From positions 2,212-66,211 of the IMG/VR virus record IMGVR_UViG_3300021075_000003: a stretch of DNA of 64,000 nucleotides; one strand, written 5' to 3'. The first letter of the stretch is position 1. The number at the start of each line of letters is the position of its first letter. The position numbers and the translations under genes are program-made. Below are positions 16,331 to 62,154 of this stretch, in pieces. A model generated the notes under the pieces. It searched no databases. It was not told the DNA's origin and saw only the letters and a program-made list of their open reading frames with translations. The stretch is from a virus (taxonomy: Duplodnaviria; Caudoviricetes).

Positions 16331-16806
16331 CGGTAAAGCGCATGCCAGTGAGTTCTCAAACTTTGGCCGTATCTTCGGCCGTGGTTTAGATGACTTCTGG
16401 GGTCGGCCAGGAAAAGACTTTGATGACGTGACTCGGATGTGGCCAAGTAATGCCTCTGGTTTCCACTTAGATGGTTTTCTAGCGGCGTTCCAGTTAGGCC
16501 CCGAACACAGCAAGCCCGACAAGGCCTCCAGGAAGCGATTCCTGAGCCTTATTAGGGTAAAGTGGGGCGAACCAGGGGTTGCGACCTTAACGCAGCTCCT
16601 GCCCCGTCCTAGCGCGTCAAAACGAAAATAAAGAAAAGAGGCTAAGGATGGACAGCGAGAGACAAAATCTTTATCGTGATTCGCAGCAAAGTTACCTCTT
16701 AATGAGGTTCAAATCCTGTTTGTAGTCATCGTAAAGATTGGACACTGTAGTTTGGTGATGCTCACCCGAAACTATAAGACCGTCGAGCTGGTGCCATGTT
16801 AGCCTG

Positions 16807-16847
16807 GCGGAGGGAGCGAACTAGAGGTTCGGCTCCCTCCGCTTTTT
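16807..16847 (+). terminator. Rho-independent terminator
   Basis: gcggagggagc / gctccctccgc plus T-tract. Confidence 0.8.
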
Positions 16848-16903
16848 ATATTAAAAATTTCTAACACTACTCAACTTCTTACTAAAAATAAAGAAATTCC
16901 GGA

Positions 16904-16935
16904 CTTTATTTCTTTCTGTTAAGAAAGAAATAAAG
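16904..16935. repeat. perfect 14-bp AT-rich inverted repeat
   Basis: ctttatttctttct-gtta-agaaagaaataaag. Confidence 0.85.
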
Positions 16936-17021
16936 GATAAACAGCTCCAAACATTTCTTCGAGGAAGTTGACATTTTCATCATGAGATGAATTTTAGCCG
17001 GTAAGTCCAATAGGATGCGAA

Positions 17022-17864
17022 ATGCCAAGGATTGAGTTTCAACTACAAACGCTACCGCTGCACCCTTCGATGGCAGCTCAGCTATACGCTGTAATACATC
17101 CGATTACCGGATCAGTAACAGACTACAAACAACAGATCATCGAACGGTTGCAAGTTATACAGGAAGCATGGCGTAGTCGTTTGCCAGCGCTACGAGACGC
17201 AGGATGTGAGCAATTACAGACTGAGAGATTGGCCTATATACGTAATTGTCCTCCATCTACTTGTGCATACTCGCCCAAGACGCAATCCTGCAACCTACGA
17301 ATTTGTCCGTATTGCCATGCGCGACGAGTGTCGAACATTTACGGACGGTTGCGCGAGCTGCTTCGTGCAAACCCAGGCGCGAAAGTGGCATCATGGAGAA
17401 AGTACACAGGGCACGAGGATGACGCCTCCCGCATCTACTTTGATGCGGATATGGGGTTGAACAAGACATTCCTGCGCGATGTATATCCGCAACAGAAGGA
17501 ATTCCGTCACGTTTTTCAGCAAGAAAACATGACAAGCGCAATCGGTGGAGTCTACTGGTACTCGATAACTCCCTACACATATAAGCGCATAGCTGCCGAT
17601 GGCAGTGAAGGACGCTGGAATACACTACACGGCTGTTGTGCGGTTATGCCGCCCGACTGGAAGTCTTGGAAGTCAGACGACTTGCGCGTTGTCAGACAGC
17701 CAGACGATTATCAACTTGCATGGCTCGTGGGGCGGTGTTTTCAGTATCGGCAACAATGGCTCTTAAGTGACCCAGACATAATGTCAGCCTTTCTGAATGC
17801 CACGCGTGGCGATGTTTTCCTCTCAGCATTCGGAAGGTTGGCCCCAAATGCCAAATCAAAATAG
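17022..17864 (+). CDS. Zn-finger protein, Rep/IS91-like N-terminal motif
   Basis: SCNLRICPYCHARR resembles the Zn motif of rolling-circle Rep/Y2 transposases; WNTLHG is a degenerate HUH. Confidence 0.5.
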   Translation: MPRIEFQLQTLPLHPSMAAQLYAVIHPITGSVTDYKQQIIERLQVIQEAWRSRLPALRDAGCEQLQTERLAYIRNCPPSTCAYSPKTQSCNLRICPYCHARRVSNIYGRLRELLRANPGAKVASWRKYTGHEDDASRIYFDADMGLNKTFLRDVYPQQKEFRHVFQQENMTSAIGGVYWYSITPYTYKRIAADGSEGRWNTLHGCCAVMPPDWKSWKSDDLRVVRQPDDYQLAWLVGRCFQYRQQWLLSDPDIMSAFLNATRGDVFLSAFGRLAPNAKSK

Positions 17865-30469: not shown

Positions 30470-31563
30470 ACGACTCAGTAGCGCTGCGCACGTCCTTCGA
30501 GATCAATGTTTTGAATCCGGCGCTGTATATTGCTTTACAGCGACGCTTCCATGACGTGAAGATTGCTAAACCTGGCGTGCCGCTGGTTGGCGGCGCTTAC
30601 GTGCAGTCAGGTTCAAGAGTTAAATTTATAGCCACGGACGACGGAGAATACTATCAGGTCTGTTGTCCTTTCTGCGCTGAAGATCGCTATAGGTTGTGGA
30701 TCAATCATAGATGGGGCGCCGGCCTAGATGTAAATCACCCTGCATATGATTCATCAGATCGCTTCTGGTGGAGTTGCCACTGTTTTAATAATGGCTGCAT
30801 GGCTAACCCGGAGAACGTAGCACAGCTGCGAACCTGGACTTATGGCGGTATAGGGCGCGAGCTACACGTTAAGCGCCCAACAATTAATGCAGGGTTTTCT
30901 GCACCAGCTGCACTAAACCATGTGGAGCTACCAGGAACCTGTGTTGGCCTTGATGACCTGCCAAGTCATCACATTGCGTGTACGTACTTGAAGGAACGCG
31001 GATATGACCCACACTGGTTAGGAGCGGCCTTTGGCTTACATTACTGTGAGGAGGCACCACCAGAGTATCCGATGACCAACGGGCGCATAATCATACCTAT
31101 CATCATGAATGGCGATCTGGTTGGATGGCAGTCTCGTCCGCCGTATGAATGTGATTGGAAGGCAATGCACACACCTAAGTATTACAACTTGCCTAACATG
31201 AGCCGTTCCTTGATGTTATACGGCTATGACTTTGCCAAACAATATCCGATATGTATTGTCACTGAGGGTGTCACTAATGTGTGGACACTGGGTGATGGTG
31301 CAGTAGCTACCTTTGGCAAGTCTATGTCATTTCAACAGGCCGAGATGATCAAGCACAGCTGGAAGGCTGCTGTAGTAGCATATGATAGCGATGCTATCAA
31401 AGAGAGCCCAGCTGTCGCGATGATGCTAGAAAGTCCTGACTTTCCTGTTGTACGCGTGCAGTTACCCGAGGGCGAGGACCCGGCCAGCATTGGCTATGAC
31501 CGGTTTATGAATCTAATGTACGACACTGCACACAAGGCCAACATAACACTACCAGAATGCTAG
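30466..31563 (+). CDS. dnaG: DNA primase (Zn finger plus TOPRIM)
   Basis: CPFC...CFNNGC, RIIIPI, PKYY, TEGV, YDSDA, GEDP. Confidence 0.85.
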   Translation: MNDSVALRTSFEINVLNPALYIALQRRFHDVKIAKPGVPLVGGAYVQSGSRVKFIATDDGEYYQVCCPFCAEDRYRLWINHRWGAGLDVNHPAYDSSDRFWWSCHCFNNGCMANPENVAQLRTWTYGGIGRELHVKRPTINAGFSAPAALNHVELPGTCVGLDDLPSHHIACTYLKERGYDPHWLGAAFGLHYCEEAPPEYPMTNGRIIIPIIMNGDLVGWQSRPPYECDWKAMHTPKYYNLPNMSRSLMLYGYDFAKQYPICIVTEGVTNVWTLGDGAVATFGKSMSFQQAEMIKHSWKAAVVAYDSDAIKESPAVAMMLESPDFPVVRVQLPEGEDPASIGYDRFMNLMYDTAHKANITLPEC

Positions 31564-34136
31564 ACCTTAAGGATGCTGATTATGCCGCTATATTTCGCGG
31601 CGATCCAAACAATGTACGGGCACAGCGATATCCGATGTACCCGTTATTGTCGCCCGGTATGCCGCCAGCCGGACCAGACTTCATAGACCATGCTCTGGCT
31701 ATAGATGGCAACGCTCCGATACAAGTGGAGGGTAAAGGCAAAGATAAGCACATTGTAAGTATTAGCGATACACTTCATCGACTATACCTGCGTGCGCTAT
31801 ACGACAAAGACTTCAGCCCGCCAATTAAGAACAAAGGGCGCGTTGAGAGTGTCAAGATTGTACTAGGGCATATCTGGGCTGATGAGGCTGACGGTCCTAA
31901 GTACTTGCCGGACGCAGTGCTGAACGGCAAGCCGCGCGTGATGATAATAGGCAAGATGCCCACGTCGGAAGAAGTATCGCTTGGACGCAATTTCACTGGC
32001 CCATCAGGTGAGTATCTACGCGAGTCTTTGATACATTGCGGAGTACCTGAAGACCAGCTAGCCGACTGGTACGTGTGTAACCTCATACGTTGGCCAATGC
32101 CATCTTCGATGACCGGTGCTGTGCCTGCGGCATGGATTAAAGACTGTTTACCTTTGATCCACCAAGAGATGCGCCTCTATAAACCAGACTATGTACTATG
32201 TCTGGGCGCCGAAGCCACCAAGGCTGTATGCGGTAAAGAGTACTCGGTCAATAATATGATCGGGCGCTTTATTACTAAACAAGAGCCCTGCTATGAAGTT
32301 GGAGAGCCTGAAATTCATCACGAGATGAAAATCATGGCCATTACACATCCAGCAGCGGTGCTGCGTACTACAGAGTTGCATCAGCAGTACGAAGCTACAT
32401 TGCGTAATTTCGTAGAGCTAATCAAGGGTAATAACTTCGCCGTATCTTCTGACAAGAGCGTACAGTGGTCGGCCATCTACAAAGAGCGCGATCTTGCCGA
32501 GTATGTGGATTTCTTACTAAGCAAGAAGGGCATTAAGACGATTGCGCTAGACTGCGAATGGCACGGCAATCACCCTAACGAGCCTAACTCGTATTTGCGC
32601 ACTGTGCAGCTAAGCGCCGACGGTAAGTTTGCAGCAGTGATAGTCATGCGGCATCAGGGAGGTGCGCCGGCCTTTGCTCCGTCACTGGCCGGAGCTATAC
32701 GTCAACTCAATCGTTTGCTGGATCGCGATGATGTGCAGATGATTGGTAGCTTTATAGCCGCTGACTTGCCGTGGCTTATGCTGAACGGTGTTAATATCCG
32801 TAAGCGCATTAGCGTACCGGAGAGTTTTGAACAGTTCCAAGGTGGCGATTATCCTGGCGTGTTCGACGTAGCGCTGGCACATCACGCCACTAATGAAACT
32901 GGCGACTATAAGCTAGAAGTGATGGGATCTAGGCTGTGCGGTACTGATCGTTGGGATGTCGAGCTACAGCAATGGAAGCATCGGTACTGCGCAGAGCACA
33001 AGATTAAGGCAGAAGAACTTGGCGGATATGGTGAGTGTCCTAAAGAGATACTCTTCCCGTATAGCGCTAAAGATGCCGCGATAACGTGGAGGCTGGCAGA
33101 GCTGCACAAGAAGCAGTTATTGAATGCAGATCAGTTTGGCAATGAATGCTGGCATGCATGTCATACCTCCATGATGGCGCTGCCTGCTTTTAATGAGATG
33201 GGCGTAGAGGGCGTTAAAGTTGATCCAGAGCGCATTGACGCGCTAACAGATCTATTCAGCTCTGCTGCTGTTGCTAAGATCAAGGCGCTGCGCACTGCAA
33301 TCAACTGGCCAACTTTTAACCCTAGAAGTAATCAGCAGTGCGTAGAGTTTCTGTTTGGTGAGGCATACTCCACCAAATTCGATAAAGAGACTGGCGAGCG
33401 GTGTCGCGTTAGACCGGCTGGCGCTATGTCGTTGAAGCTAACGCCTGTTAAGAGTACGGCCGGCAAGTCGTGGGCCCAGGTTGAAGCTAAGGGCGAAATG
33501 GATAAGTACAGCCCATGCACTGATAAAGAAACCTGCGGTATATTGGGCGCTCGCCATCCATTGGCGATGACACTTCGAGACATTCGATTAATCGATCAGG
33601 TCACTAAGAGTGTTTTCAGTATGCCCAAGGCTAAAGACGGCAAGCTACTCATGAAGTACGGGCGAAGAGTGTATAGCGGCGGACTAGGCAAGTATGTCGG
33701 TCAAGATTGCCGCGTGAGAAGCACGTTCGTACAGGTTAAGGAAACAGGTCGAGCCAGTAGTGCGCGACCCAACCTTCAAGCGCTCAGCGCTCGTAGAGAA
33801 GATGACTACCGGCGCATACTGGGGGATAAGTACACATTCCCAATCAGATCCTGTATTACCAGTAATACAGACTGCGAGTATGGTGAAGAGACACTTCTGG
33901 TAGAAGCCGACTTCAAAGGCGCAGAGCTAATGCTAATGGCAGTGCTCACCAGAGACGATACGATGCTAGACCATTGCGCCAGGGCTAACCTGCCAGAGAG
34001 TGATACTAACTACTATGACATGCATAGTCGAGTAGCTGTGCGCGCTTTCAGGTTAGATTGCGCTCCAACTAAGAGTGGCTTAAAGAGCATAGGTAAAGGT
34101 GGCCTTAGGGTGGCTGCTAAGGGAATTCTATTCGGT
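31557..34136 (+). CDS. polA: DNA polymerase family A, exon 1 (UDG-like domain, 3'-5' exonuclease, pol motif A)
   Basis: family-4 UDG-like GKMP..EE...FTGPSG and ITHPAAVLR; ALDCEW exonuclease; TGRASS.PNLQ; ADFKGAEL; ends inside motif B R.AAKGILFG. Confidence 0.92.
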
Positions 34137-34173
34137 CAATTTGAAAATTGGCCCAGAAAATTATCTCCAAACA

Positions 34174-34202
34174 TTGACAGCTTAGCGGCATAACGCTATA
34201 AT
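34174..34202 (+). promoter_or_regulatory. consensus sigma70 promoter inside the intron
   Basis: TTGACA-17 nt-TATAAT, then AGGAG SD and ATG 34223. Confidence 0.8.
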
Positions 34203-51600: not shown

Positions 51601-53577
51601 ATGAGCTTCATGGACCCAAATTACTACTCTCCTACGAGTGGTACCCAAGCAGAGCCGTTCCCAGATCCCTTTTGCGATTATGCCTCTACAGCGATGCCAA
51701 CGTCGCTGGAGAACGCATTACGCTGGTGTGAATATATCATGCTGGCTAATGGCGTATATCGCTCCGCTGTTGATCGATTAGTATCCTACTTCGTTACTGA
51801 TGTGGATATTAAAGGAACGGATCGCGAGAGCCGCGACAAGTACATGGACTATCTAAACAACACTATAGGCATCCATGCGCATTTGCGTACGGTTGCCTTA
51901 GATTATCTCACCTACGGAAACTTCTTTTCGTCGGTGGTTATACCGTTTAGGCGTAGTCTATCTTGTCCCGGCTGCGGCTTTGAGGCTCCTTTGAAGCAAA
52001 TCCATGGCAACCAGAAATTCGGGTTTAGCTGGACCGGACATGAGTTCTCTGCCACTTGCCCATTCTGTCAGTATGCTGGCAAGTGGTCGCATGTGGATCG
52101 TCGGGCTGCTGAGGACGACGCTATCGTTATTAAACGATGGAATCCGCATGAGATAGATTTGATCTGGGATCCGTATACCGATCAAGTCAGTCATATCTGG
52201 AAAATACCTCCGCACTATAAGCAGTATCTAGCTAAAGGCACGCTGTTCCACTTGGAGCGCGCGCCTTACGAGGTATTGCAAGCCGTTAAGAATAACAACC
52301 ACATTCAGTTCACGAATGACGTTATTTACCACGGCAAAGAACATACGCTGGCCGGCATCCTAAACAAGGGGTGGGGCATATCGCGCATTCTCACTAACTT
52401 CAGACAGGCATGGTACTTACAAGTACTACATCGCTATAACGAAGCAGTGGGTTTGGACTACATTATTCCATTCCGTGTCATCACTCCTATGCCCCGACCT
52501 GGCGGTGGTGAGGGCGCTGGCATGAGTGATCCGCTGTTCACTACGGACTTTGGCGGTTTCTCGGGTCAAGTTAATTCGATGCTACAAAAGCGTCGACGTG
52601 ATCCGACAGCTTGGTTCTCATTGCCATTCCCTGTGCAATACCAAGCGCTAGGTGCCGAGGCTGGGAATATGGCACCGCATGAATTAATGGATCAGGCACT
52701 GGATACATTGCTGAGCGCAGTCGGCGTGCCTGTGGAGTTCTATAAGGGTTCGCTTACCATTCAGGCAGCTCCAGCCGCGTTGCGTCTTATGGAGAGCAAC
52801 TGGAGCCATCTCACCCGCGTGCTAAATAACTACCTCCAATGGCTGGTAGACAAGATTAGCATCGCGCGTAATTGGGATGAGGTTACTGCAACCTTAGAAC
52901 GTCCGCAGCACGCCGACGACTTGCAACGCCAGCTGGCAAAGCTCCAGCTTATGATGGGACAACAGATCTCCCAGACAACCGGTCTCAAGAGCGTTGGCCT
53001 TGTCTTCGAGGACGAGCAGAAGCGCATGCAAGAAGAGCAGAAGTTCGTGGCCGAAGAGAGCCAGAGCACGCAAGAAGAGATGCAGATGGCTGGACTGGGC
53101 GAACAGATGGCGCAAGGCCAAGACCCAACACAGGGAGGCGCTCCTGGCGCTGCCCCTGGCGGTGCTCCTGGTGGCGACCCATCCCAAGGTGGCGCTGCTC
53201 CGGCTGGTGGTGCTCCTCAGGGCGACGCATCTTCTGGGCAGGCTGCAACAGCACCTGTAGACCCAGTGCAGGCAGCACTAGCAAACGTGCCGCCTGAAGG
53301 GCAAGCGCAAATGACTCCTCAGGAGTTAAACGATGCGGCAAATACGATCAGTCAGCAAGTGTTTGCGCTACAGCCGCCTGATCGTATCAAGGCACTGCGA
53401 CAACTCAAGCAAAAGAATCCCACGATTCATAGCTTGGTTAAGAGTTTACTCGAACAGCTTGACCAGCAAGCGGCATCCAAGGGTAAACAAATGCAGCAAC
53501 AGCAAGCGCAGCAGACGCAGAGTCAATCAATGGCTCCGCCTCCTGCGCAGGGTGGCGGGGGCGCGCCGCCGCAGTAA
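51601..53577 (+). CDS. probable portal protein with Zn-ribbon insertion and Gly/Gln-rich tail
   Basis: DYLTYGNFF portal-like motif; size and helical pattern; CPGC...CPFC insertion. Confidence 0.55.
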   Translation: MSFMDPNYYSPTSGTQAEPFPDPFCDYASTAMPTSLENALRWCEYIMLANGVYRSAVDRLVSYFVTDVDIKGTDRESRDKYMDYLNNTIGIHAHLRTVALDYLTYGNFFSSVVIPFRRSLSCPGCGFEAPLKQIHGNQKFGFSWTGHEFSATCPFCQYAGKWSHVDRRAAEDDAIVIKRWNPHEIDLIWDPYTDQVSHIWKIPPHYKQYLAKGTLFHLERAPYEVLQAVKNNNHIQFTNDVIYHGKEHTLAGILNKGWGISRILTNFRQAWYLQVLHRYNEAVGLDYIIPFRVITPMPRPGGGEGAGMSDPLFTTDFGGFSGQVNSMLQKRRRDPTAWFSLPFPVQYQALGAEAGNMAPHELMDQALDTLLSAVGVPVEFYKGSLTIQAAPAALRLMESNWSHLTRVLNNYLQWLVDKISIARNWDEVTATLERPQHADDLQRQLAKLQLMMGQQISQTTGLKSVGLVFEDEQKRMQEEQKFVAEESQSTQEEMQMAGLGEQMAQGQDPTQGGAPGAAPGGAPGGDPSQGGAAPAGGAPQGDASSGQAATAPVDPVQAALANVPPEGQAQMTPQELNDAANTISQQVFALQPPDRIKALRQLKQKNPTIHSLVKSLLEQLDQQAASKGKQMQQQQAQQTQSQSMAPPPAQGGGGAPPQ

Positions 53578-54623: not shown

Positions 54624-55023
54624 ATTGACAGTACCAAGCCAAATAGAGTGGCGCGAGCGCATCCGTAAAATGCGTAGCGAAGGCGTAATTCTTACACACG
54701 TACCTGTACAACAGCTGATGCCAGCAGTACGGCCGATACCTAATACTAGGCCATTTGTGCCTACGCCTGGGTTAGCGCCTATCAAGCTAGCGCCGCCTCC
54801 GCAGCAAGCAGAGGTAATCAAGCCTAGGGAGCAACTGCTTCCGCCAAACGTACAGGAAACTTCCGTAGCGCCAATACAGGCGTACGTTGAAGCCCAAGCT
54901 AAAGCAATCCCGCCAGCGCCAATACCAGCGCCTACGGTGACGCCAGCTAAAGTTCGCGCAAAGCGAACTATCTAGTTAGCATACAATCAGACTAAGAAAC
55001 TAGAGCAATAGGAGTTCACACAC

Positions 55024-55491
55024 GTGAACGATGTAACAGAATTATTGTCGTTGCTGGTAAGCCAGTATCAGACGAAGCAATTCAGGGTAGATGGCGCGCA
55101 GGAACAATCCGTACCAGCGCCGCTAGATCAGCTTGATGCTGAGTTTACTTCAGGTCGTTCTCCGGCCACGCAGGAAGAGCGCAGCGAGCAGCTTGCCGCG
55201 CGACGAGGCATAGAGCACTTTGTAGCATTCTGCCGCCAGTTCCTAAAGGAGCATCCGCCTGAGACGCACATCATGCTTGCGCAAGGGTTCGGGGTGCGCT
55301 TGACAGGTGGCTACGATGTAAGCCTTACTCCAACTCAGTACGAGTCACTTGGCGGTCAGCTTGAAGATGCTCCGTCGTATGCGGTGACTGTGGGTATGGG
55401 GCATCCGGCAATGCGCGGAGTAGAGTCTAGCCCAAGCTATGCAGTTACAGGAGAGCAGGCGCACCCCGGCTTGCGCGGACCCGGTGCCTGA
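55024..55491 (+). CDS. hypothetical protein with PSYAVT duplication
   Basis: AGGAG SD; two PSYAVT..HP..RG units. Confidence 0.55.
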   Translation: MNDVTELLSLLVSQYQTKQFRVDGAQEQSVPAPLDQLDAEFTSGRSPATQEERSEQLAARRGIEHFVAFCRQFLKEHPPETHIMLAQGFGVRLTGGYDVSLTPTQYESLGGQLEDAPSYAVTVGMGHPAMRGVESSPSYAVTGEQAHPGLRGPGA

Positions 55492-55554
55492 AGACAGACT
55501 TAGTATGCGGCATTATAATACGAAGTATAGTCATTTAATCAACACGGGGCAAAA

Positions 55555-56013
55555 ATGAAAACTATACCGATGGATGACATCAATATTGGCCAGGCCGTTA
55601 CAATTCTTCACGGCCCTTACGAGACGGTAATGATGCCGCCCATGATGTTAAATGGCGAAGACCCGCCTACCATAGATACGGCTACGCCTGGCCGTGTATT
55701 CATTATCGAGGCTGTCGATATGAATACAAAACTGATCATGCTTAAAGCTCTGGATGGCGGCGGACCGCCACAACAGAAGATGCAGCAGGTCGGCTCACTG
55801 ATGGCGCTGTTCCCGGAACAATCAAAGCCGGATACCTACATTTACGAGCTCAATAAAATCGAGCTTGCCGTAGTCAGCCCGGAATGGCTGAAAGCCTACA
55901 CGCGCAACTTCTGCGCACACAAGAGAGGTACCACTGAGCTACGAGAGAGGCCGCGTAAGCCACGACCCGCCATTGCGGATGAAATGGCAATTAGAGACAG
56001 GCCAGCTAGTTAA
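55555..56013 (+). CDS. hypothetical protein
   Basis: 152 aa, downstream of a GGCATTATAATA motif. Confidence 0.55.
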   Translation: MKTIPMDDINIGQAVTILHGPYETVMMPPMMLNGEDPPTIDTATPGRVFIIEAVDMNTKLIMLKALDGGGPPQQKMQQVGSLMALFPEQSKPDTYIYELNKIELAVVSPEWLKAYTRNFCAHKRGTTELRERPRKPRPAIADEMAIRDRPAS

Positions 56014-56168
56014 GGTAGATCTGGCAAGCGACCAATGCTATAGGTTGCGCACAGGGGATAGCGTAACAACGCCTGAAGGACGCGCTAGAATCAAAGAGAT
56101 TTTCTGGCACACGCAAACAAGCGCCACATCGGTGCTGCAGCTAACATAGCTAATACAAAACAATACAT

Positions 56169-56204
56169 AAGCCCGTCAGCTAACAACTGACGGGCTTTTC
56201 TTTT
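56169..56204 (+). terminator. Rho-independent terminator
   Basis: aagcccgtcag / ctgacgggctt plus T-tract. Confidence 0.8.
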
Positions 56205-56207
56205 GGA

Positions 56208-57128
56208 GTGACAATGTTACAAGACCTATTGTTAGGGCACCTACTAGGCAATCGAGATCCGCGCACCCTAGTTGAGTTAGCGCATCTACAGCTTAAGTCT
56301 GGTAGGCTTGCGCTAGCGAACTCGCCAGAGTTAATGGCTACGGCTGCAAAGCTGTGTAAGGAGCGCGCAAAGCTATACGAGGCTAGCTCGACGCTGGAAG
56401 ACTTGAAGGCGCAATACGACTTCAATAGTCATATTGGGCGCTTAGCGTTTGCAGCAGCCTGTCTGCCAGAGCATTTGCGGAGCACCGTGCTGCACGACGT
56501 ATTCAAGACATTGTGTGTATGGATAGGTAAATCAGGTGAGTGGGCTGAGACTACGCCTGGTAGTATGCTTCGAGCTAGCAAGGAGCGGCTGCGCTGCATG
56601 GATACATCTGCCGCGGTATTGCAGCAAGTGAAAGACGTCCTGTGTCCTGCAGTAGACAGTAACGCAACACTCGACGAGTTTGCGGATGCGCTTCATGACT
56701 ACCTGGCAGAGATGTTTGATAAGGCAGATGTAGAGCTAGCGAAGATGGAGAAGTGTACCGAGGATCTAAACGACGATGGGTTGTTGGATCGGCTAGCTGC
56801 TGCCATGCCTGATGATGAAGAGGAAGACTCGGAGACAGATGTGGTTGATAACTGGGCATCTGCGCATCCGCTAGCTGGCAAGCGTTGCTACCTGCGTGAC
56901 GATGTAAGGCATCCGCATCGTCAGATAAGTAGTATACCAGTGGATGTTATCGACTGGGATGTTAGAGCTAATCCGCAGCCAGAGGAGCTCTACGAATTCA
57001 ATATGCGGCAGGACATATACAACCTACCGCAGGACGGAAAGTACGTGATGGTCAAAGCAGTAGCGCACGAGTACGGTGAGGACCGACTCATCGTACATGA
57101 GACTGAGATAGAAGCTGACACCCATTAA
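56208..57128 (+). CDS. hypothetical protein
   Basis: 306 aa ORF. Confidence 0.65.
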   Translation: MTMLQDLLLGHLLGNRDPRTLVELAHLQLKSGRLALANSPELMATAAKLCKERAKLYEASSTLEDLKAQYDFNSHIGRLAFAAACLPEHLRSTVLHDVFKTLCVWIGKSGEWAETTPGSMLRASKERLRCMDTSAAVLQQVKDVLCPAVDSNATLDEFADALHDYLAEMFDKADVELAKMEKCTEDLNDDGLLDRLAAAMPDDEEEDSETDVVDNWASAHPLAGKRCYLRDDVRHPHRQISSIPVDVIDWDVRANPQPEELYEFNMRQDIYNLPQDGKYVMVKAVAHEYGEDRLIVHETEIEADTH

Positions 57129-57133
57129 GCGGA

Positions 57134-57382
57134 GTGGATGTCAGATATAACTTTTCCGCTGTAACCTGTAAGGGAGTACCTAAGGTGGACGATAACAAGA
57201 TGTTGCCTGTGGTGCAGGAGCACTACGCAAAACTCAGGATTGCCATTGAGGCAGCGCTAGGGCCGAAGAAAGAATCTTCGGATTCGGCAGCAACAGATGC
57301 CCAAAAGGAAGACGACATCTGGGCTGCGCATTTCAAGATGGACCTAGGTGGCTATAGGTGTCCACCCAAGCCACGATTGTAA
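57134..57382 (+). CDS. hypothetical protein
   Basis: 82 aa ORF ending before a terminator. Confidence 0.5.
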   Translation: MDVRYNFSAVTCKGVPKVDDNKMLPVVQEHYAKLRIAIEAALGPKKESSDSAATDAQKEDDIWAAHFKMDLGGYRCPPKPRL

Positions 57383-57388
57383 ACACTC

Positions 57389-57428
57389 GTAGGATGACTG
57401 GCTTCGGCCAGTCATCCTGCATCTTTTT
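57389..57428 (+). terminator. Rho-independent terminator
   Basis: gtaggatgactggc-TTCG-gccagtcatcctgc plus T-tract. Confidence 0.9.
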
Positions 57429-57518
57429 GTTAGCTATCAGCTTTAGATTTTGTAATTGATATGAAAATCTAGGGTATGGTTTATACCCCTAAAACACGTT
57501 AACAACGGACATAAACGC

Positions 57519-57531
57519 GGCAGTATATAAT
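57519..57531 (+). promoter_or_regulatory. putative promoter for the large ncRNA
   Basis: GGCAGTATATAAT with TATAAT at 57526-57531, similar to the recurrent GGCATTATAAT motif. Confidence 0.5.
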
Positions 57532-57536
57532 GATGG

Positions 57537-59185
57537 AGATCATAGTACTCTGGGTCTGCAGCCCAGACGAGGTGGTCTTCAAGACGAAGCGTGAAGGCTT
57601 CTAAGGCGCCCGGTCAACAAGGTTTGACTGGACGGTCTCTCTACATCAAGTGATGTCTGAGAGCGGAACAACCCTACGACCCTAACTACAGTCGACTGTA
57701 GCGGGAAGTTTGGGCCCCAGCCTATAGGACAGTCACTCGGAAGGGTGGGCATGTCTTGGGTAGTAGGAACTTCACAATTCGTTCAGGGGTGAACTCAGGA
57801 GTCGCGTCCTGTCAAGTCACCCCGTCAGTACAGACTAGTCACCTGTACTGACAAACGGTTGCGATAATTGGCCTACTCTGATGGAGTAGCGATTATCGTA
57901 ATCGTGGCGGAGTTAGAGGCGTAAGCTACCTCTAACCGAGCCGAAGGCGCTAGCTATACGACAACCCGTAGGCTTAAACGGGAAGTCGCTCACTTGACGT
58001 AGCACTTGGGTTTCTGCCCCAGGAGGTGCGTCCCAACAACTACCTTTGACTGCCTCTACTGTGCAGCAAAGGCGCCTTAGTTGTGGAGTCGGTGAGTAGT
58101 TATAGCTAGTGCCGAGGAGTGGCTGTGGTCTTCAACAGTACCTGCGTTGCGGGTAGTGTGACGAAGATGGCACAGTTACTTCAGCGATGTGGTTATAGGG
58201 AGGTGCATATACGGCACACCTATAATCCGGTGGTTCAAGAGAACTGCCCGGGTTAGCCAGTGGACGACAATCACTGGTAAGTCTATGGTCGAACATTCCT
58301 CCGACCATAGCGCGCGAGAAGAGCCGATCAGCGCGCTCGCGTTCCCGAATGTCCCTAGCACAGGGAAAGCCGTGACGGCGACAGTCCTCCACCGGGACAG
58401 AAAAGAAAGGGTCCTCTCAAAACAATGAGGGGAGGTGTCGCATGTAACGGACAAAGCCAATATCTACGTTTCGATACGTAGATGGGTGTTGGCATAGTGC
58501 AAAAAACCAGAGGGCGTGTATTAGCCCAATGGCTAAGTTGAGCGCATATGGCATGTGCTCGCTTAGATAAGTACACCGGCGTTTCTCTCGCCGAAATCCC
58601 GAGACAGCAACATAGACAGCCTCGCTGTGTGTTGCTAGTGGGAAGCTTGAAGCTTCTGCCGAGGCAAAAAAGTCGCGTAGCTAAGGCTGCGTGTGCACGC
58701 TCAGTATTTGCAGGCATGCAAGTGCTGAGCGTGTACGGAGGCCGCTGTATCGCTCGTACAGTGGGAGTACATCACACTCGAGGGTGTGGTGTATTCATAG
58801 TAGAGCTTTATAAGGCAGGTTGTCAGATCAGCAGGACATGCCCGAACTATCGGCATCCTCAGATCGCACATGGACAACCTGTCTTACAAAGCTCTACTGA
58901 GTACATGCGTGGTCCGGTCGTCCACGCGTGTCAATGGGACCCGCCAACTGTTTGCCTAGCAGTTGGTGTACCATCGATAGGCCTGAAGACTCCAGTAGGA
59001 GTCATATACCATGTGGAAGGTATACGTTGCAGCGCCGACTACGTTAGTGGCGGCAGGGGCGATTCTGTATGATCGCCCGACTATCAGGCGCAGTGAGCTG
59101 CGCCACCTCATCATTTCCCCCCTAAAGTTTATCGCCATCTTACGAATGGCGCATAAGCTTTAGTGGGGGCGTCTTTGATTTTTTT
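57537..59185 (+). ncRNA. putative ~1.6 kb highly structured non-coding RNA, class unknown
   Basis: more than 30 adjacent hairpins with many G-U pairs on the + strand only; long-range helices; end pairing; no credible ORF; bounded by a promoter and a terminator. Confidence 0.8.
59117..59185 (+). terminator. terminator-like long hairpin closing the ncRNA unit
   Basis: ccccc.taaagtttat.cgccat / atggcg.ataagcttta.ggggg followed by a T-rich tract. Confidence 0.7.
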
Positions 59186-59210
59186 CTTAACTATTGAAGG
59201 AGAATGAATA

Positions 59211-59399
59211 ATGGCGGCGAAGGTATTCACGGCGGGATGTTTGATGATGGTAGTGGCAAAAGACATAGAAGCGGCGCGCAGGTTATTGGTGGCCTGCCCG
59301 CCCTCGCGGCTACGTGATGCCGCAATACTCCAGCTAGCAGCGCTGGAACGGACTACTACACCAGAGGAGCCTAAGGATGTCAGTAAGAAAGCCGCTTAG
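59211..59399 (+). CDS. hypothetical protein
   Basis: AAGGAG SD. Confidence 0.55.
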   Translation: MAAKVFTAGCLMMVVAKDIEAARRLLVACPPSRLRDAAILQLAALERTTTPEEPKDVSKKAA

Positions 59400-59805
59400 C
59401 CATACGTTGGCAAGTGGTTGGATGAAGCCGTTCAAATGCACACGATGTGCAAAGAGCGTGCTTCTATCCGAGCGGGAACTCTACTACAGCGAAACGTGGA
59501 GTCGTCACGTTCACTGCGGTGGACAGCTGGTTCCCGCACCAGAGAGGCTGCACAGCTTAATAAAAGCAGCCTCAAGTAAAGAGCGAGCTACCGCTAAAGC
59601 TCGCGCTGCCAAGAAGGCAGAAGCCACTGCACGTCGCAGGGCGGAGTGGCAGCGGAAATTGGCGCCTAAGGAGTATAAGCTGCTCCAAGACGCCAGAATT
59701 AACCCAGAGGCTGCGCAAGCTCTATTGGAAGCCTCGGAGGCTTTCGAGAAGGCTTGGAAAGCGGCTGCACTTAGAAAATATATGAGCCAACTCAAACTTT
59801 TATAA
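59377..59805 (+). CDS. Zn-ribbon / basic helical hypothetical protein
   Basis: CTRC...HCGG; GAGGAG SD. Confidence 0.55.
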   Translation: MSVRKPLSHTLASGWMKPFKCTRCAKSVLLSERELYYSETWSRHVHCGGQLVPAPERLHSLIKAASSKERATAKARAAKKAEATARRRAEWQRKLAPKEYKLLQDARINPEAAQALLEASEAFEKAWKAAALRKYMSQLKLL

Positions 59806-59820
59806 AAGGAGACCGAGACA

Positions 59821-60180
59821 ATGAAACTAGACAAAGAAGCGTGTCGAAGGCTGGATTGGAAGTTGTATGATCGCTGCAAGCGTCTGACGTTGATAGTCCG
59901 GCGCCAGGCCCCAGACTGTATCGTGGAGGGGGCCATTAGGTTGGTGCTCCAGGCCGGTCTCGGCCGGTACACAGGGTTGGCCGCCTCCATATTCCATGAA
60001 ATGGCGCGCAACACCCAGGCTCGCCTGGGTGTTTGTAGCTGCGGCACGGCAATCGAAGAGCCGGCAAAAGGCGACTGGCCGGAATTTTGCCCAACCTGCC
60101 AGGCGCGGCAGGATGAAGAAGACGAGCGGGCGGCGGTCGACGCCCTCCGCGACGAGGAGCTCGACGCCGAGGAACTGTAG
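59821..60180 (+). CDS. hypothetical protein with C-terminal Zn finger
   Basis: CSCG...CPTC; AGGAG SD. Confidence 0.6.
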   Translation: MKLDKEACRRLDWKLYDRCKRLTLIVRRQAPDCIVEGAIRLVLQAGLGRYTGLAASIFHEMARNTQARLGVCSCGTAIEEPAKGDWPEFCPTCQARQDEEDERAAVDALRDEELDAEEL

Positions 60181-60285
60181 TCAAACGGGTTAGCCTACCC
60201 ACTAAAAGGGCGACTTCAATCCGCTCGCTGTTGACTGTCCGGGAGGTCCGGATAGTCAACAGTGGGCAAACAAAAGGAGACAAAC

Positions 60286-60843
60286 ATGGTCGAGTACGAG
60301 GAGAACAAAGTTGGTACAGCACTCCAGAGAGTGGCAGACTTTGGGGTATTCATACTGCTGACGGGATTTGTTATGTGCATCCCGGTACTGCTAGGAGCGT
60401 GGTGGGACGAGCAGCGACATTGGGCGCAAACTCCCGATTCATTAATGTGGACGCTCGTAGGCGTCATAGCCTACACCTGTACTGGCCTCGCCATTGCCGC
60501 AGTGGCGATGGCCCTGATATTCCTAGGCTACGCCTGGGAATGGTATCAGGAGTGGCGGCTTGAGAGCACCGGAGACCACATCCAGGCGTATGAAACCTGG
60601 TATGTCGACGAGAGATTGCGACTCTTGTCAGAAAACCAAAAAACGTACCAGTTCTTGCTAAACTGGTACAAGCCAGGGGGAAGGCAGTTCTATGTGGAAG
60701 AGCTGCCAACTCTAGTAGCATGCGCCAAGAGTGCGCCAAAGCAGCAGGTGCAACAAGGCCCGCTTCGAGTGCAATTCATGGCCGAGGCGGGCTGGTATGA
60801 GATCACGTGCCTAGTACACGTGAGAGGGGGGGCGTTGGTATGA
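60286..60843 (+). CDS. two-TM membrane protein
   Basis: AGGAG SD before MVEYEE; two hydrophobic helices. Confidence 0.6.
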   Translation: MVEYEENKVGTALQRVADFGVFILLTGFVMCIPVLLGAWWDEQRHWAQTPDSLMWTLVGVIAYTCTGLAIAAVAMALIFLGYAWEWYQEWRLESTGDHIQAYETWYVDERLRLLSENQKTYQFLLNWYKPGGRQFYVEELPTLVACAKSAPKQQVQQGPLRVQFMAEAGWYEITCLVHVRGGALV

Positions 60844-61118
60844 TGCTTCTACAACGGTTGTGGGGCTGGCATCTCATGGGGTTGCTCTGGTCCCTAGTGC
60901 TGGGGTTCGCTGCTCTACTAATAGGTATGATACCGGGCACATGGTATCAGGCCGAGCAGGAAGTGCCACCTGCCGTCGAACTCTACGAGAAGGTAATGGG
61001 GTACGTTCTGAGCGTACCCCTGTTGACCGGAACGTACTGCCTGGTAGCGCTCAGCGCGCTATGGGCGAGTATGTTACTTCTAGGGATCTACACCAAAGCA
61101 GTAGAGCCCTTGAAGTGA
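60840..61118 (+). CDS. two-TM membrane protein
   Basis: ATGA coupling; hydrophobic. Confidence 0.5.
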   Translation: MMLLQRLWGWHLMGLLWSLVLGFAALLIGMIPGTWYQAEQEVPPAVELYEKVMGYVLSVPLLTGTYCLVALSALWASMLLLGIYTKAVEPLK

Positions 61119-61281
61119 AAAACAAAAATAGCGCAAAACGATCGAGCAATGCTCCATCGTGGTAGATCTGGGTTCGAGGCCCAGGCGCTATTCTGGTACG
61201 TTAGTCCGCCTTTCGGCGGCGTTTAGAGTCACGATACGACTACACATTTCAGCCGATTTAACACCGGCAAAGGAGACTCAG

Positions 61282-61746
61282 ATGCGATACGATTTCCCGA
61301 TAGTGGTAGTGGACAATGACGAAGGTCGGACATGGCGCGGAGAGGGACAATACCTACCATCCGGCATATTTGCCGGGATTGCAACAGCGTCCTTCTCAGT
61401 AGAGGACGCCCCAGACGACCACCCGACATACTACATTGTGGAGTTTCTCGGCTTTAACGCCGAGGAGCTCGACTTGTCCAATATGGAGGTGGGCGAACCA
61501 GGGGTTGAATTCAACGGATTCAGCCATCCGGTTGGGGCGATGTTCGCTAAGGCGCCACGAGACTACACAATAGCGCTGGATGGAGAAGTGCAGGGAGTGG
61601 TCAGTTCCTACACAATCAGGGGAGCCCTGAGTAAGTGGGACACAACTAACATGACCTACGAGTGGTTGGTGGTCAAAGTCGAAAAAGACATCTACGTAGT
61701 GGAGTCGCCTGATGAGGCGCACCGAGTGACCGTGACCCCCTCGTAG
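61282..61746 (+). CDS. acidic hypothetical protein
   Basis: AGGAG SD before MRYDFP. Confidence 0.6.
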   Translation: MRYDFPIVVVDNDEGRTWRGEGQYLPSGIFAGIATASFSVEDAPDDHPTYYIVEFLGFNAEELDLSNMEVGEPGVEFNGFSHPVGAMFAKAPRDYTIALDGEVQGVVSSYTIRGALSKWDTTNMTYEWLVVKVEKDIYVVESPDEAHRVTVTPS

Positions 61747-62010
61747 GTGGTCGCGACATCAGTGGGAGCCTAAACCCAATAGTGGGGCGTAACGTACGCC
61801 GATAAGATATCGGCGTGCCGCTTGGTGATCCAAGGAGTGGATCCGGCACAGGTCGTAAAGTCCGTGACCGTACTGGGGGCCTTACAAGCCCTTGAGGCTC
61901 CTACGGAAAAGGAGGACCAGCTGAAAGGCTGGGACTGAATCACTGTGTGACAGTGATGCAGCTATACTGGGCCGTCCCTCGTCGGGGCGGCTCGGTATAG
62001 TTTTTCTTTT
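61747..62010 (+). ncRNA. putative ~260 nt structured RNA ending in a terminator
   Basis: run of short hairpins plus terminator gctatactgggccgtccct / ggggcggctcggtatagt and T-tract. Confidence 0.5.
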
Positions 62011-62154
62011 AGCTATCAGACATCAAGTATGAGGCACTATCATGGCATTATACAGTGGAGACGTCAAAGATTGCCCAGCACGGGCGCTTGTTTTTAGCTA
62101 TCAGCCACTCCGCACTTTTAGTAAACTAATAGCTACACATTCCACGGAGTACTA

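What the first reader, a model, noticed from the sequence alone, without database searches (positions are those of the whole stretch)
57537..59185. A ~1.6 kb almost fully base-paired phage RNA with closed ends: candidate new giant ncRNA class
Seen: this is a 1.8 kb gap in an otherwise gene-dense genome. It is bounded by a UUCG terminator (57389-57428), a TATAAT at 57526 and a terminal hairpin with T-tract (59117-59185). Inside, hairpins follow one another with short, often A-rich linkers. Examples: gtcagtacag / ctgtactgac (57824-57852); a 16-bp stem 57855-57870 / 57890-57905 with three G-U pairs; a 13-bp long-range helix 57946-57958 / 58101-58113 enclosing a multi-branched domain; a 21-bp stem with a GGCA (GNRA) loop at 58692-58737; and a two-part ~25-bp helix 58799-58824 / 58873-58898. 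GAGGTGG (57569) can pair with CCACCTC (59103) and close the whole molecule. Stem imperfections are mostly G-U on the + strand (A-C on the - strand), which points to selection on an RNA rather than DNA cruciforms. Known: the large bacterial and phage ncRNAs GOLLD, ROOL and OLE are under about 1 kb, and I see no group I P7, group II domain V, tmRNA or RNase P signature here. Inference: an undescribed large structured RNA, possibly a scaffold or cage, a decoy for anti-phage RNA sensors, or a precursor cut into hairpin guides.
Basis: partly seen in the sequence, partly recalled or inferred. Interest (0 to 1): 0.9.

Follow-up and report, generated by a model that had tools for sequence, protein, structure and literature searches.

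The report
Orphan giant hairpin-rich phage RNA
A 1.8-kb gene-free stretch of an uncultured lake jumbo phage folds into an unusually dense chain of long hairpins and is probably a non-coding RNA, but no relative of it could be found, so its class and its job remain unproven.

Summary
The gap is real. 57383-59210 has stops in all six frames under every single-stop recoding and negative coding scores. It is the most strongly folding part of the 64-kb window and is denser in long perfect hairpins than any of 4761 1-kb windows from 81 related phage loci. Rfam gives nothing. A promoter-like block shared with the nearest relative precedes it.

- 70% of bases are paired, about the same as coding controls.
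- The 'GGCA' loop is not GNRA, and stable tetraloops are not enriched.
- The end-closing helix is not favoured.
- The 3' hairpin is not a canonical terminator.
- The + strand G-U advantage is confined to about 58.5-58.95 kb.

No homologue turned up in any collection I could search, so covariation could not be tested and a 'class' is not established. The nearest relative carries an unrelated ~230-nt structured RNA at the same spot.

Best reading: an orphan, fast-turning-over accessory cassette for a ~1.65-kb hairpin-array RNA. Transcription and function are unproven. Earlier notes of this scan describe ~2.1-kb hairpin-dense loci in crAss-like phages, on DNA unlike this one.

The parts
57389..57420 (+). 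Intrinsic terminator (14-bp stem, UUCG loop, T-run) ending the upstream operon (306-aa and 82-aa genes)
   Evidence: sequence
57430..57440 (+). TTAGCTATCAG junction motif that follows terminator T-runs in this phage family
57488..57531 (+). Promoter-like block (AAACACGTTAAC ... GGCAG-TA-TATAAT) alignable with five other sites in this phage, L004 and L019; invariant GGCA and TA
57537..59116 (+). Body of the candidate non-coding RNA: 41 hairpin loops, 79 helices of 4 bp or more, MFE -770 kcal/mol over 57537-59190
   Evidence: non-coding
57946..58113 (+). Branched domain closed by a 13-bp helix (pair probability 0.98)
   Evidence: single-sequence covariance model R1 found no copy elsewhere
58675..58968 (+). 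Run of abutting long hairpins (7, 20, 9, 14, 12+14, 10, 11 bp). This is the only part with a clear + strand (G-U) stability advantage
58548..59072 (+). 174-aa ORF, judged not coding: codon score 0.018 per codon (24 training genes 0.05-0.26), no Shine-Dalgarno, ATG inside a hairpin loop, no family, no homologue
59117..59186 (+). Terminal 22-bp hairpin, then CGTCTTTGA and T7. Terminator-like but non-canonical
   Evidence: absent from the list
59187..59210 (+). Degenerate junction (TTAACTATTGA) with AGGAG Shine-Dalgarno before the first downstream gene; no room for a separate promoter block
59211..61746 (+). Downstream cassette of six small genes (two zinc-ribbon-like, two membrane-like). They are coding-like with good Shine-Dalgarno sites, have no homologue in relatives, and may be co-transcribed with the RNA
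61747..62002 (+). Structured non-coding tail ending in a strong terminator (19-bp stem plus T-run), followed by the next TTAGCTATCAG at 62009

Best explanation
57.43-59.19 kb is a self-contained accessory cassette of an uncultured freshwater jumbo phage. It specifies a non-coding + strand RNA of about 1.65 kb (up to about 1.75 kb if transcription starts at the junction motif), built as a chain of about 40 hairpins, several of them 10-26 bp and near-perfect. SHOWN: it does not code for protein; its hairpin content is exceptional for this genome and for its relatives; it lies behind a promoter-like block that also precedes protein-gene cassettes here and in two relatives; and it matches no known RNA family. 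INFERRED: it is transcribed together with the neighbouring late/structural-region cassettes. Its duplexes of 20 bp or more (58693-58736, 58798-58899, 59117-59169) are cut by host RNase III, which releases stable stem-loop pieces and separates the RNA from the downstream message. The RNA acts in trans as a duplex-rich decoy or sponge for a host RNA-binding or RNA-sensing factor. The decoy idea rests only on two things: its fast turnover, which is typical of host-interaction cassettes (the nearest relative has an unrelated 230-nt structured RNA in the same slot), and the absence of antisense targets in the phage itself.
For: Non-coding: there are 5-16 stops of each kind in all six frames, and no frame opens under TAG, TGA or TAA reassignment. 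Codon scores are negative in all frames over 57450-58500 and about 0 over 58500-59100. The 174-aa ORF has no Pfam or PHROG match and no homologue among 5.8 billion proteins. No small ORF combines a Shine-Dalgarno site with a coding-like frame.
Structure: z -9.6 and -18.1 against shuffles. The excess stability of -89 and -115 kcal is 1.4-4.8 times that of four control segments. The five most extreme of 425 windows lie here. Hairpin cover is 0.337 against a maximum of 0.242 in 4761 windows of relatives and 0.225 in 13 further loci. There are 11 helices of 10 bp or more against 0-3 in controls.
Strand and transcription: a canonical terminator ends the upstream operon. A promoter-like block is shared by 6 sites in 3 phages. 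The + strand stability advantage at 58.5-58.95 kb is z -4.3 and -4.8 after skew correction, and G-T against A-C is 11:0 in those stems.
Same slot in the nearest relative: L004 has the same block, then a ~230-nt structured RNA (z -7.7), then a canonical terminator.
Real DNA: an independent assembly of the same run covers 55000-59747 in one 13.8-kb contig with 0 differences.
No antisense enrichment against the rest of the window: for 12-mers, 6 antisense against 12 sense.
Against: There is no expression data of any kind. No homologue exists, so there is neither covariation nor conservation evidence; everything rests on one sequence. Coding regions of this phage also fold better than shuffles (z -2.8 to -6.8). 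For the 5' half, the two strands are equally favoured (z -9.6 on both), and skew-corrected asymmetry is absent there. RNA-specific loop signatures are absent: 1 GNRA and 0 UNCG among 14 tetraloops. The 3' hairpin is not a canonical terminator, so the RNA may not be a separate molecule. The promoter-like block is not a good sigma-70 consensus and was not listed by the promoter scan. The 66-kb record, which is about 31% complete, encodes no RNase III, Ro60/TROVE or reverse transcriptase. The decoy function is conjecture.
Confidence: 0.5

Rival explanations
1. It is not a separate RNA. It is a giant structured 5' leader of one ~4.5-kb transcript that runs from the promoter-like block (about 57.53 kb) through the six small genes to the strong terminator at 61960-62002. 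The hairpin 59117-59169 would act as an attenuator, or as a processing and stabilising site that sets expression of the small genes. From memory, the nearest precedent is the promoter-proximal terminated leader of lambdoid late operons.
For: The 3' hairpin is followed by CGTCTTTGA before its T-run and was not called a terminator. Only 24 nt, with no promoter block, separate it from the Shine-Dalgarno site and ATG of 59211. Long hairpins continue inside the downstream cassette, for example a 21-bp hairpin at 60223-60267 between two genes. Hairpin cover there is 0.30-0.32 and G-T against A-C is 26:6. The whole 57.43-62.0 kb block is bounded by two terminator+TTAGCTATCAG junctions, and none of it has homologues in relatives.
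Against: In L004 the equivalent structured RNA is closed by a canonical terminator and followed by its own second promoter block, so there it is a stand-alone unit. The junction after 59186 resembles the family-wide 'terminator-motif-SD-ATG' junction that separates units elsewhere. I know of no precedent for a 1.65-kb leader before six tiny genes.
Confidence: 0.25
2. It is a DNA-level element: single-stranded DNA hairpins or cruciforms used in replication, recombination or packaging, not an RNA.
For: Both strands beat their shuffles (- strand z -9.6 and -8.1). In the 5' half there is no strand preference. G-T wobble also stabilises DNA hairpins. RNA-type tetraloops are not enriched.
Against: There are no iterons or direct repeats (3 two-copy families of 14-25 nt only). 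There is no AT-rich unwinding tract and no turn in cumulative GC skew. The terminase gene is 53 kb away. The 41 hairpins are all different in sequence, which argues against a protein-binding array. The element sits exactly between a terminator and a terminator-like hairpin, behind a promoter-like block.
Confidence: 0.07
3. It is function-less filler: the remnant of decayed genes or of inserted palindromic elements, whose hairpins were made or kept by template-switch mutation rather than by selection.
For: It is an orphan. The closest relative does without it. No conservation can be shown. The surrounding region is a hypervariable cassette zone.
Against: Phage genomes rarely keep 1.8 kb of ballast. 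No trace of coding frames or homology remains. The hairpin arms match nothing else in this record or in relatives, so they are not copies of a mobile palindrome. The hairpin excess is beyond anything in 4761 windows of relatives.
Confidence: 0.1
4. It is a protein-coding region after all: the 174-aa ORF 58548-59072, a small ORF such as 59011-59163, or a recoded gene.
For: The 174-aa ORF is open, and the source record's gene caller evidently called it (it is in the protein collection only as this contig's own). 59011-59163 has AGGAG 8 nt upstream of its ATG.
Against: The ORF's codon score is 0.018, below all 24 training genes. The frame of 59011 scores -0.33 to -0.34. There is no Shine-Dalgarno site before 58548, and its ATG sits in a hairpin loop. 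There is no Pfam or PHROG match and no homologue. No stop reassignment opens the region.
Confidence: 0.03

Closest known systems
GOLLD and ROOL RNAs (large 'ornate' RNAs of phages and prophages; cryo-EM cages, PMC12286853, passages read)
   Same: Phage-encoded, non-coding, very large for a bacterial-world RNA, no known protein partner, function unknown.
   Different: There is no match to either Rfam model, even at E up to 10. It is about twice the length of GOLLD ('many members exceeding 800 nucleotides'). It has no tRNA neighbours: 0 tRNAs in the window. It is built mainly of long regular hairpins rather than many short helices with junctions. It is an orphan, whereas GOLLD and ROOL are widespread families defined by covariation.
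Long non-coding RNAs of crAss-like phage phi14:2 (bioRxiv 10.1101/2020.03.07.982082, one passage read) and the ~2.1-kb hairpin-dense loci that earlier notes of this scan report in Suoliviridae (AI notes, not checked here)
   Same: Kilobase-scale intergenic regions of large phages that are, or are proposed to be, abundant ncRNAs of unknown function.
   Different: This is a different phage group: the portal is only about 25% identical to any cultured phage. There is no sequence likeness to any noted window. The crAss loci are reported as conserved across a family, whereas this one is unique to one contig.
Promoter-proximal terminated leader RNA of lambdoid late operons (6S RNA with Q antitermination) and HK022 put RNAs. 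Recalled from general knowledge; not looked up.
   Same: A promoter, then a structured non-coding transcript, then a terminator-like hairpin, then late genes without their own obvious promoter.
   Different: Those leaders are roughly 70-200 nt (recalled), against 1650 nt here. No antiterminator gene was identified in the record.
RNase III processing hairpins between genes of T7-like phages. Recalled; not looked up.
   Same: Long, slightly imperfect hairpins in phage transcripts; here also one between genes at 60223-60267.
   Different: In T7 these are single sites between coding regions, not about 40 hairpins in a 1.65-kb gene-free tract. Cleavage here is untested.
CsrB/RsmZ-type hairpin-array sponge RNAs. 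Recalled; not looked up.
   Same: A chain of consecutive stem-loops in one non-coding RNA acting as a sponge, which is the mechanism I propose.
   Different: Those carry a repeated GGA loop motif. Here only 2 of 41 hairpin loops contain GGA, and no repeated loop motif is present.

Membership tests
GOLLD / ROOL / OLE / raiA and every other Rfam 15 family | Score at or above the family's gathering threshold with its covariance model | tested here: not met
   0 matches at gathering over the whole window. In 57300-59300 the best rows are microRNA/sRNA chance hits with E 0.29 or more, far below gathering scores.
GOLLD / ROOL | Frequent neighbourhood of tRNA genes (typical, not strictly defining; PMC12286853 passage) | tested here: not met
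   ARAGORN finds 0 tRNA or tmRNA genes in the 64-kb window.
Group I / group II self-splicing introns | Catalytic-core match (Rfam intron models) and an interrupted host gene | tested here: not met
   No intron model appears among matches up to E 10. The flanking ORFs are complete, the upstream one is followed by a canonical terminator, and there is no reverse transcriptase in the record.
A new RNA family or 'class' | At least two homologous members whose helices are kept through compensatory changes | tested here: not met
   No homologue by blastn or nhmmer in the 83 related viral/metagenome loci. None in 13 further loci, 5 whole related records, 50,697 phage records or 9 promoter-pattern loci. 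Model R1 found nothing in 1.33 Mb. Only the probable source run holds the sequence. Covariation could not be computed.
Stand-alone bacterial/phage RNA gene | Own promoter and own terminator, with a transcript of defined ends | tested here: inconclusive
   A promoter-like block is conserved at 6 sites but is not a sigma-70 consensus. The 3' hairpin with a distant T-run was not called a terminator. Transcript ends are not testable: no RNA run was available.
Protein-coding gene | Open frame with the genome's codon bias, a ribosome-binding site and homologues | tested here: not met
   (details under parts and rivals).
CsrB/RsmZ-like protein sponge | Repeated GGA (or other) motif in many hairpin loops | tested here: not met
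   2 of 41 loops contain GGA, with no recurrent loop sequence. Direct-repeat search finds only 3 short two-copy families.
Ro60/Y-RNA-like, retron or CRISPR-type RNA modules | Partner gene (TROVE, reverse transcriptase, cas) in the genome, and repeat units | tested here: not met
   No TROVE or RVT_1 in the 66-kb record. Pfam finds nothing at E up to 0.05 in the 'Nop-like' and 'RAMP-like' ORFs. There is no repeat array. The record is only about 31% complete.

The most novel reading that the evidence does not exclude
A stand-alone, abundantly made 1.65-kb RNA that is the founding member of a new kind of phage RNA. It would be a giant chain of near-perfect duplexes, about twice the size of GOLLD. 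It would be encoded in a swappable late-region cassette and used as a duplex-RNA decoy, or as a precursor of many hairpin RNAs, against host RNA-sensing or RNA-cutting defences. The cassette junctions (terminator+TTAGCTATCAG) would let such RNAs be exchanged between phages.
Probability: 0.2. Interest if true: 0.8.

Novelty: new variant of a known kind. Interest (0 to 1): 0.45.

Why it matters
Large structured RNAs of phages (GOLLD, ROOL, the long RNAs of crAss-like phages) are among the least understood gene products in microbiology. If this stretch is transcribed, it would be one of the longest non-ribosomal structured RNAs in the bacterial world. It would also have a different build, a string of long duplexes rather than an ornate fold, and would sit in a fast-evolving cassette, where anti-defence functions tend to lie. 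It would be a concrete candidate for an RNA-based decoy. As it stands it is one sequence from one lake sample, with no relatives and no expression data. Its present value is as a well-delimited target for a simple experiment, not as an established new class. The conserved cassette junction and promoter-like block found on the way may help to read transcription units in a large, uncultured jumbo-phage family: more than 900 portal homologues, with contigs up to about 230 kb.

Tried and rejected
Homologue hunting: all negative for the RNA.
- blastn 'distant' against 50,697 phage records found no match.
- The window's own record holds only itself plus two 26-nt internal inverted matches.
- Single-protein search for related loci found nothing with the 306-aa upstream protein, the C39-like protein, the 154-aa protein or the 142-aa protein.
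- The upstream protein has only 1 homologue in the search for homologous proteins and 5 non-self hits (4 with E below 1e-30) in the 1.84-billion representative search. Its alignment A1 retrieved only L005 (same contig as L004) and a 1.4-kb metagenome contig, L006.
- The portal alone gave L004. Portal alignment A2 gave 80 viral loci and 9 MAG loci carrying mixed taxon labels, so no host can be named.
- blastn and nhmmer of 57383-59210 against these loci gave a best blastn E of 0.16 over 27 nt, and nhmmer found nothing at E up to 1.
- BLAST in 5 whole related records found only 14-15-nt matches with E 0.7 or more.
- The covariance model of domain 57940-58120 found only itself, plus one row at E 9.
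- The promoter-pattern scan of viral contigs gave 10 loci. One is the L004 contig, and 9 look like chance (no terminator context, no protein or RNA likeness).
- The ~230-nt RNA of L004 also has no homologue beyond the shared promoter and terminator blocks, and Rfam gives it only chance rows.
- Rfam at gathering scores on 6 related loci found one tRNA.
- Earlier findings: no look-alike stretch in other scanned genomes.

Public runs: one DNA run, the probable source, holds the stretch, and no RNA holder is listed. That run is kept as contigs only, so it gives neither population variants in the RNA nor expression.

Context proteins. Pfam and PHROGs give nothing for the neighbours. The AlphaFold2 model of the 306-aa protein has pLDDT 74, and Foldseek against the PDB finds nothing below E 0.17; the weak KOW/Tudor-like rows were not taken as evidence. 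No phage-type RNA polymerase was found in 5 records, but the control rang nowhere, so that search is uninformative.

Ideas dropped:
- An antisense regulator of the phage's own genes.
- A tandem array of diverged units: repeat spacings are inconsistent.
- A recoded gene.
- A-rich unpaired regions as a hallmark: 35-38% A here against 36-45% in controls.
- TTAGCTATCAG as a general late promoter: only 3 exact copies in a complete 195-kb relative.

Literature. Four word searches turned up no description of a hairpin-dense phage RNA longer than 1.5 kb. These were word searches of open-access text only. Of the papers, I read passages of PMC12286853 and one passage of 10.1101/2020.03.07.982082. The rest I saw only as listings. 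Supplements were not opened.

These include a Logan-only contig whose portal is 81% identical. They might hold a homologous RNA.
Full report
WHERE IT IS. The window is bases 2212-66211 of a 66,211-bp IMG/VR virus record that CheckV rates about 31% complete. The only public run that holds the stretch is a lake-water metagenome, probably its source. The genome encodes a gpA-type large terminase, an NAD ligase, an SbcC-like ATPase, helicases and a UDG-PolA fusion. Its 658-aa portal-like protein (weak PHROG portal hit) has more than 900 homologues on contigs of up to about 230 kb. The nearest cultured phages are only about 25% identical (Vibrio phages D69, D181 and D148, and Salmonella phage Arash). 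It therefore belongs to a large, uncultured jumbo-phage family.

THE OBSERVATION. Between the stop of an 82-aa coding-like ORF (57382) and the ATG at 59211 lie 1828 nt. Among ORFs of 100 aa or more, no other gap in the window exceeds about 400 nt. All six frames carry 5-16 copies of each stop codon, and no single-stop reassignment opens the region. A codon-usage log-odds score trained on 24 long genes of the window (0.05-0.26 per codon) is negative in every frame across 57450-58500 and close to zero across 58500-59100. The one long ORF is 58548-59072 (174 aa). It scores 0.018, lacks a Shine-Dalgarno site, has its ATG in the loop of hairpin 58539-58561, matches no Pfam or PHROG family, and has no homologue among 5.8 billion proteins. 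A 50-aa ORF with a good Shine-Dalgarno site (59011-59163) lies in a frame that scores -0.33. By contrast, the small ORFs from 59211 to 61746 have strong Shine-Dalgarno sites and positive scores in their own frames only, so they are real genes.

The full fold of 57537-59190 has MFE -770.2 kcal/mol. It has 79 helices of 4 bp or more, 577 pairs of which 62 are G-U, and 41 hairpin loops. 47.5% of bases have a partner at probability above 0.9. Against dinucleotide shuffles, the two halves give z -9.6 and -18.1 on the + strand.

CONTROLS THAT TEMPER THIS. Coding segments of the same phage also beat their shuffles:
- 52000-52969: z -6.4
- 56208-57177: z -2.8
- 59211-60180: z -4.8
- 60181-61150: z -6.8
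The z-values alone therefore exaggerate. Measured as excess stability, the RNA halves (-89 and -115 kcal) are 1.4 to 4.8 times the controls (-24 to -65). The paired fraction (68-71%) is barely above controls (62-69%). What differs is helix length: 4+7 helices of 10 bp or more against 0-3 in eight control segments. Two independent yardsticks place the region at the extreme:
- The five lowest GC-corrected values among 425 sliding windows all lie in 57751-59100.
- Cover by perfect hairpins reaches 0.337 per kb, against a maximum of 0.242 in 4761 windows of 81 related loci and 0.225 in 13 more loci.
An independent (Logan) assembly of the run reproduces 55000-59747 in one contig without a single difference, so the region is not an assembly artefact.

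WHICH STRAND, AND RNA OR DNA? The minus strand also beats its shuffles (z -9.6 and -8.1), as any set of inverted repeats must. After regressing the +/- energy difference on G-C and T-A skew, only two windows (58501-58800 and 58651-58950) show a real + strand advantage (z -4.3 and -4.8). The 5' half shows none. In stems detected while treating G-T and A-C alike, G-T against A-C is 11:0 in 58693-58968, 14:8 overall, and 146:150 in the rest of the window. RNA-specific stable tetraloops are not enriched: 1 GNRA and 0 UNCG of 14. The structural evidence for an RNA, and for the + strand, is therefore local and moderate. The stronger argument is context.

CONTEXT.
- Upstream, a canonical UUCG terminator (57389-57420) ends the operon of the 306-aa and 82-aa genes.
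- It is followed by TTAGCTATCAG (57430). This motif also follows the terminators at 62002 and 62086 and recurs after GC-rich hairpin+T-run terminators in many relatives, often only a few bases before a Shine-Dalgarno site and ATG.
- Next comes a block (57488-57531, ending in TATAAT) that aligns with five other sites: two before protein-gene cassettes in the closest relative L004, one before a gene in L019, one at 62016 in this window, and one in L004 directly after the homologue of the 306-aa gene. GGCA and a downstream TA are invariant.
- L004 is syntenic with the window up to that gene: the portal is 84% identical in its best segment, and the 306-aa protein 35%. There, the same block drives about 230 nt of unrelated, strongly folding sequence (z -7.7) that ends in a canonical terminator, followed by the next motif and promoter block.
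The position is therefore a conserved slot for a promoter-to-terminator unit without a gene, and its content turns over completely between close relatives. In the window, everything from 57134 to at least 63999 lacks homologues in all 83 related viral/metagenome loci held at that call, whereas the genes just upstream have them: 77, 14, 6 and 6 loci.

At the 3' end, the 22-bp hairpin 59117-59169 is followed by CGTCTTTGA and then T7, and the scan does not accept it as a terminator. The next 24 nt (TTAACTATTGA AGGAG ... ATG) look like a worn copy of the family's terminator-motif-SD-ATG junction, with no second promoter block. Read-through into the six small genes is therefore plausible. Those genes end at a structured tail and a strong terminator (61960-62002), followed by the next motif.

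WHAT IT IS NOT.
- It is not any Rfam family.
- It is not an intron: there is no core match, the flanking genes are intact, and there is no reverse transcriptase.
- It is not a tRNA island.
- It is not a repeat array.
- It is not an antisense regulator of genes in the window.
- It is not a GGA-type sponge: 2 of 41 loops carry GGA.
- It is not partnered with a TROVE, RNase III or reverse-transcriptase gene in the part of the genome we have.
- The 'Nop-like' and 'RAMP-like' ORFs that first-stage notes linked to it have no Pfam support at E up to 0.05.
- The proposed end-to-end closing helix is one of many possible 7-nt complements and is not favoured in the ensemble.

HOMOLOGUES. I found none, by any route open to me (see Tried and rejected). 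The covariation test that would decide between 'selected RNA structure' and its rivals could not be run.

HOW IT MOST LIKELY WORKS. Shown: this is a non-coding, exceptionally hairpin-rich segment, placed as its own unit behind a family-specific promoter-like block, in a slot whose content is replaced between relatives. Inferred: the RNA is made with the neighbouring late-region cassettes. Duplexes of 20-26 bp are the size that bacterial RNase III cuts (general knowledge). The transcript is therefore probably processed at 58693-58736, 58798-58899 and 59117-59169, which would also detach it from any read-through message. Fast turnover, accessory position and the lack of targets within the phage point to a trans-acting role towards the host, such as a duplex-RNA decoy or sponge. 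I put 0.5 on 'stand-alone non-coding RNA gene' and 0.25 on 'giant leader of the small-gene operon'. The specific decoy mechanism is conjecture and deserves perhaps 0.15-0.2 on its own.

COMPARISON AND NOVELTY. It works, at most, like the known large phage RNAs in being big, structured and protein-free, but it is a member of none of them. It is about twice the length of GOLLD and is built differently. The long intergenic RNAs of phi14:2 and the ~2.1-kb hairpin-dense loci that earlier notes of this scan report in crAss-like phages (unchecked) show that kilobase-scale phage ncRNAs are a recurring theme. No sequence likeness links them to this one. I rate it a new variant of a known kind, not a new class, because a class needs more than one member. 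Interest is 0.45. The feature is striking and cleanly delimited, but it rests on a single sequence with no expression or conservation evidence.

Noticed in passing
window 57430-57440, 62009-62019, 62094-62104; L004 17395, 17684, 19446, 21183; many of L009-L086: T-run + TTAGCTATCAG directly follows GC-rich terminator hairpins across this jumbo-phage family, often only 3-10 nt before a Shine-Dalgarno site and ATG. There are 85 matches with at most 1 mismatch on 67 locus-strands, some of them chance hits inside genes. There are only 3 exact copies, all on one strand, in a complete 195-kb relative. It may mark cassette junctions, a processing site or a special promoter. No T7-type RNA polymerase was found, but that search's control did not ring.
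   Followed up: partly
window 57488-57531 and 62016-62070; L004 17402, 17691, 19453; L019 16111: Shared promoter-like block (..TTAAAAAC..N..GGCAT-NN-TAtAaT) with invariant GGCA and TA. It is not a sigma-70 consensus.
   Followed up: partly
window 62016-62093: Mini-cassette: junction motif, promoter-like block, about 40 nt, a small terminator (62072-62086 plus T-run), then the motif again before the C39-peptidase-like gene at 62155. It looks like a promoter-proximal terminated leader.
   Followed up: no
window 61747-62002: Structured non-coding tail after the last small gene (hairpins 61794-61818, 61874-61903, 61939-61957), ending in a 19-bp terminator. It has no promoter of its own, so it is more likely a 3' UTR than a separate RNA.
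   Followed up: partly
window 60223-60267: Near-perfect 21-bp hairpin (3-4 G-U) in the 105-nt spacer between two small genes, with no T-run. It is a candidate RNase III processing or stabilising site. Hairpin cover stays at 0.30-0.32 per kb across the coding stretch 59.75-60.75 kb.
   Followed up: no
window 59718-61000: The source run's contigs break here and carry low-depth variant pieces at 80-90% likeness, including one that skips 60849-60994. This indicates strain-level variation in the small-gene cassette but none in the RNA.
   Followed up: no
L004 8750-12724; proteins P0015, P0020, P0037, P0038: Some portal homologues are about 1000-1300 aa and carry intein or LAGLIDADG Pfam hits. The L004 portal match spans 2673 nt against 1977 nt here, so it probably holds an intein.
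   Followed up: no
window 56208-57128: The 306-aa protein just upstream has only 5-6 relatives in 1.84 billion representatives. The AlphaFold2 model (pLDDT 74) is a helical N-terminal part plus a small beta C-terminal domain. Foldseek gives only weak KOW/Tudor/SH3-like rows with E 0.17 or more.
   Followed up: partly
window 16631-17022: AT-rich (40% GC) intergenic gap that folds unusually well, more so on the - strand (-3.4 sd).
   Followed up: no
window 31557-34193: One 878-aa protein combines uracil-DNA-glycosylase, 3'-5' exonuclease and family-A polymerase domains.
   Followed up: no
L004 17447-17680: About 230 nt of gene-free, strongly folding sequence (z -7.7) between the shared promoter block and a canonical terminator, in the slot that holds the 1.65-kb RNA here. 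It has no Rfam family and no homologue.
   Followed up: partly
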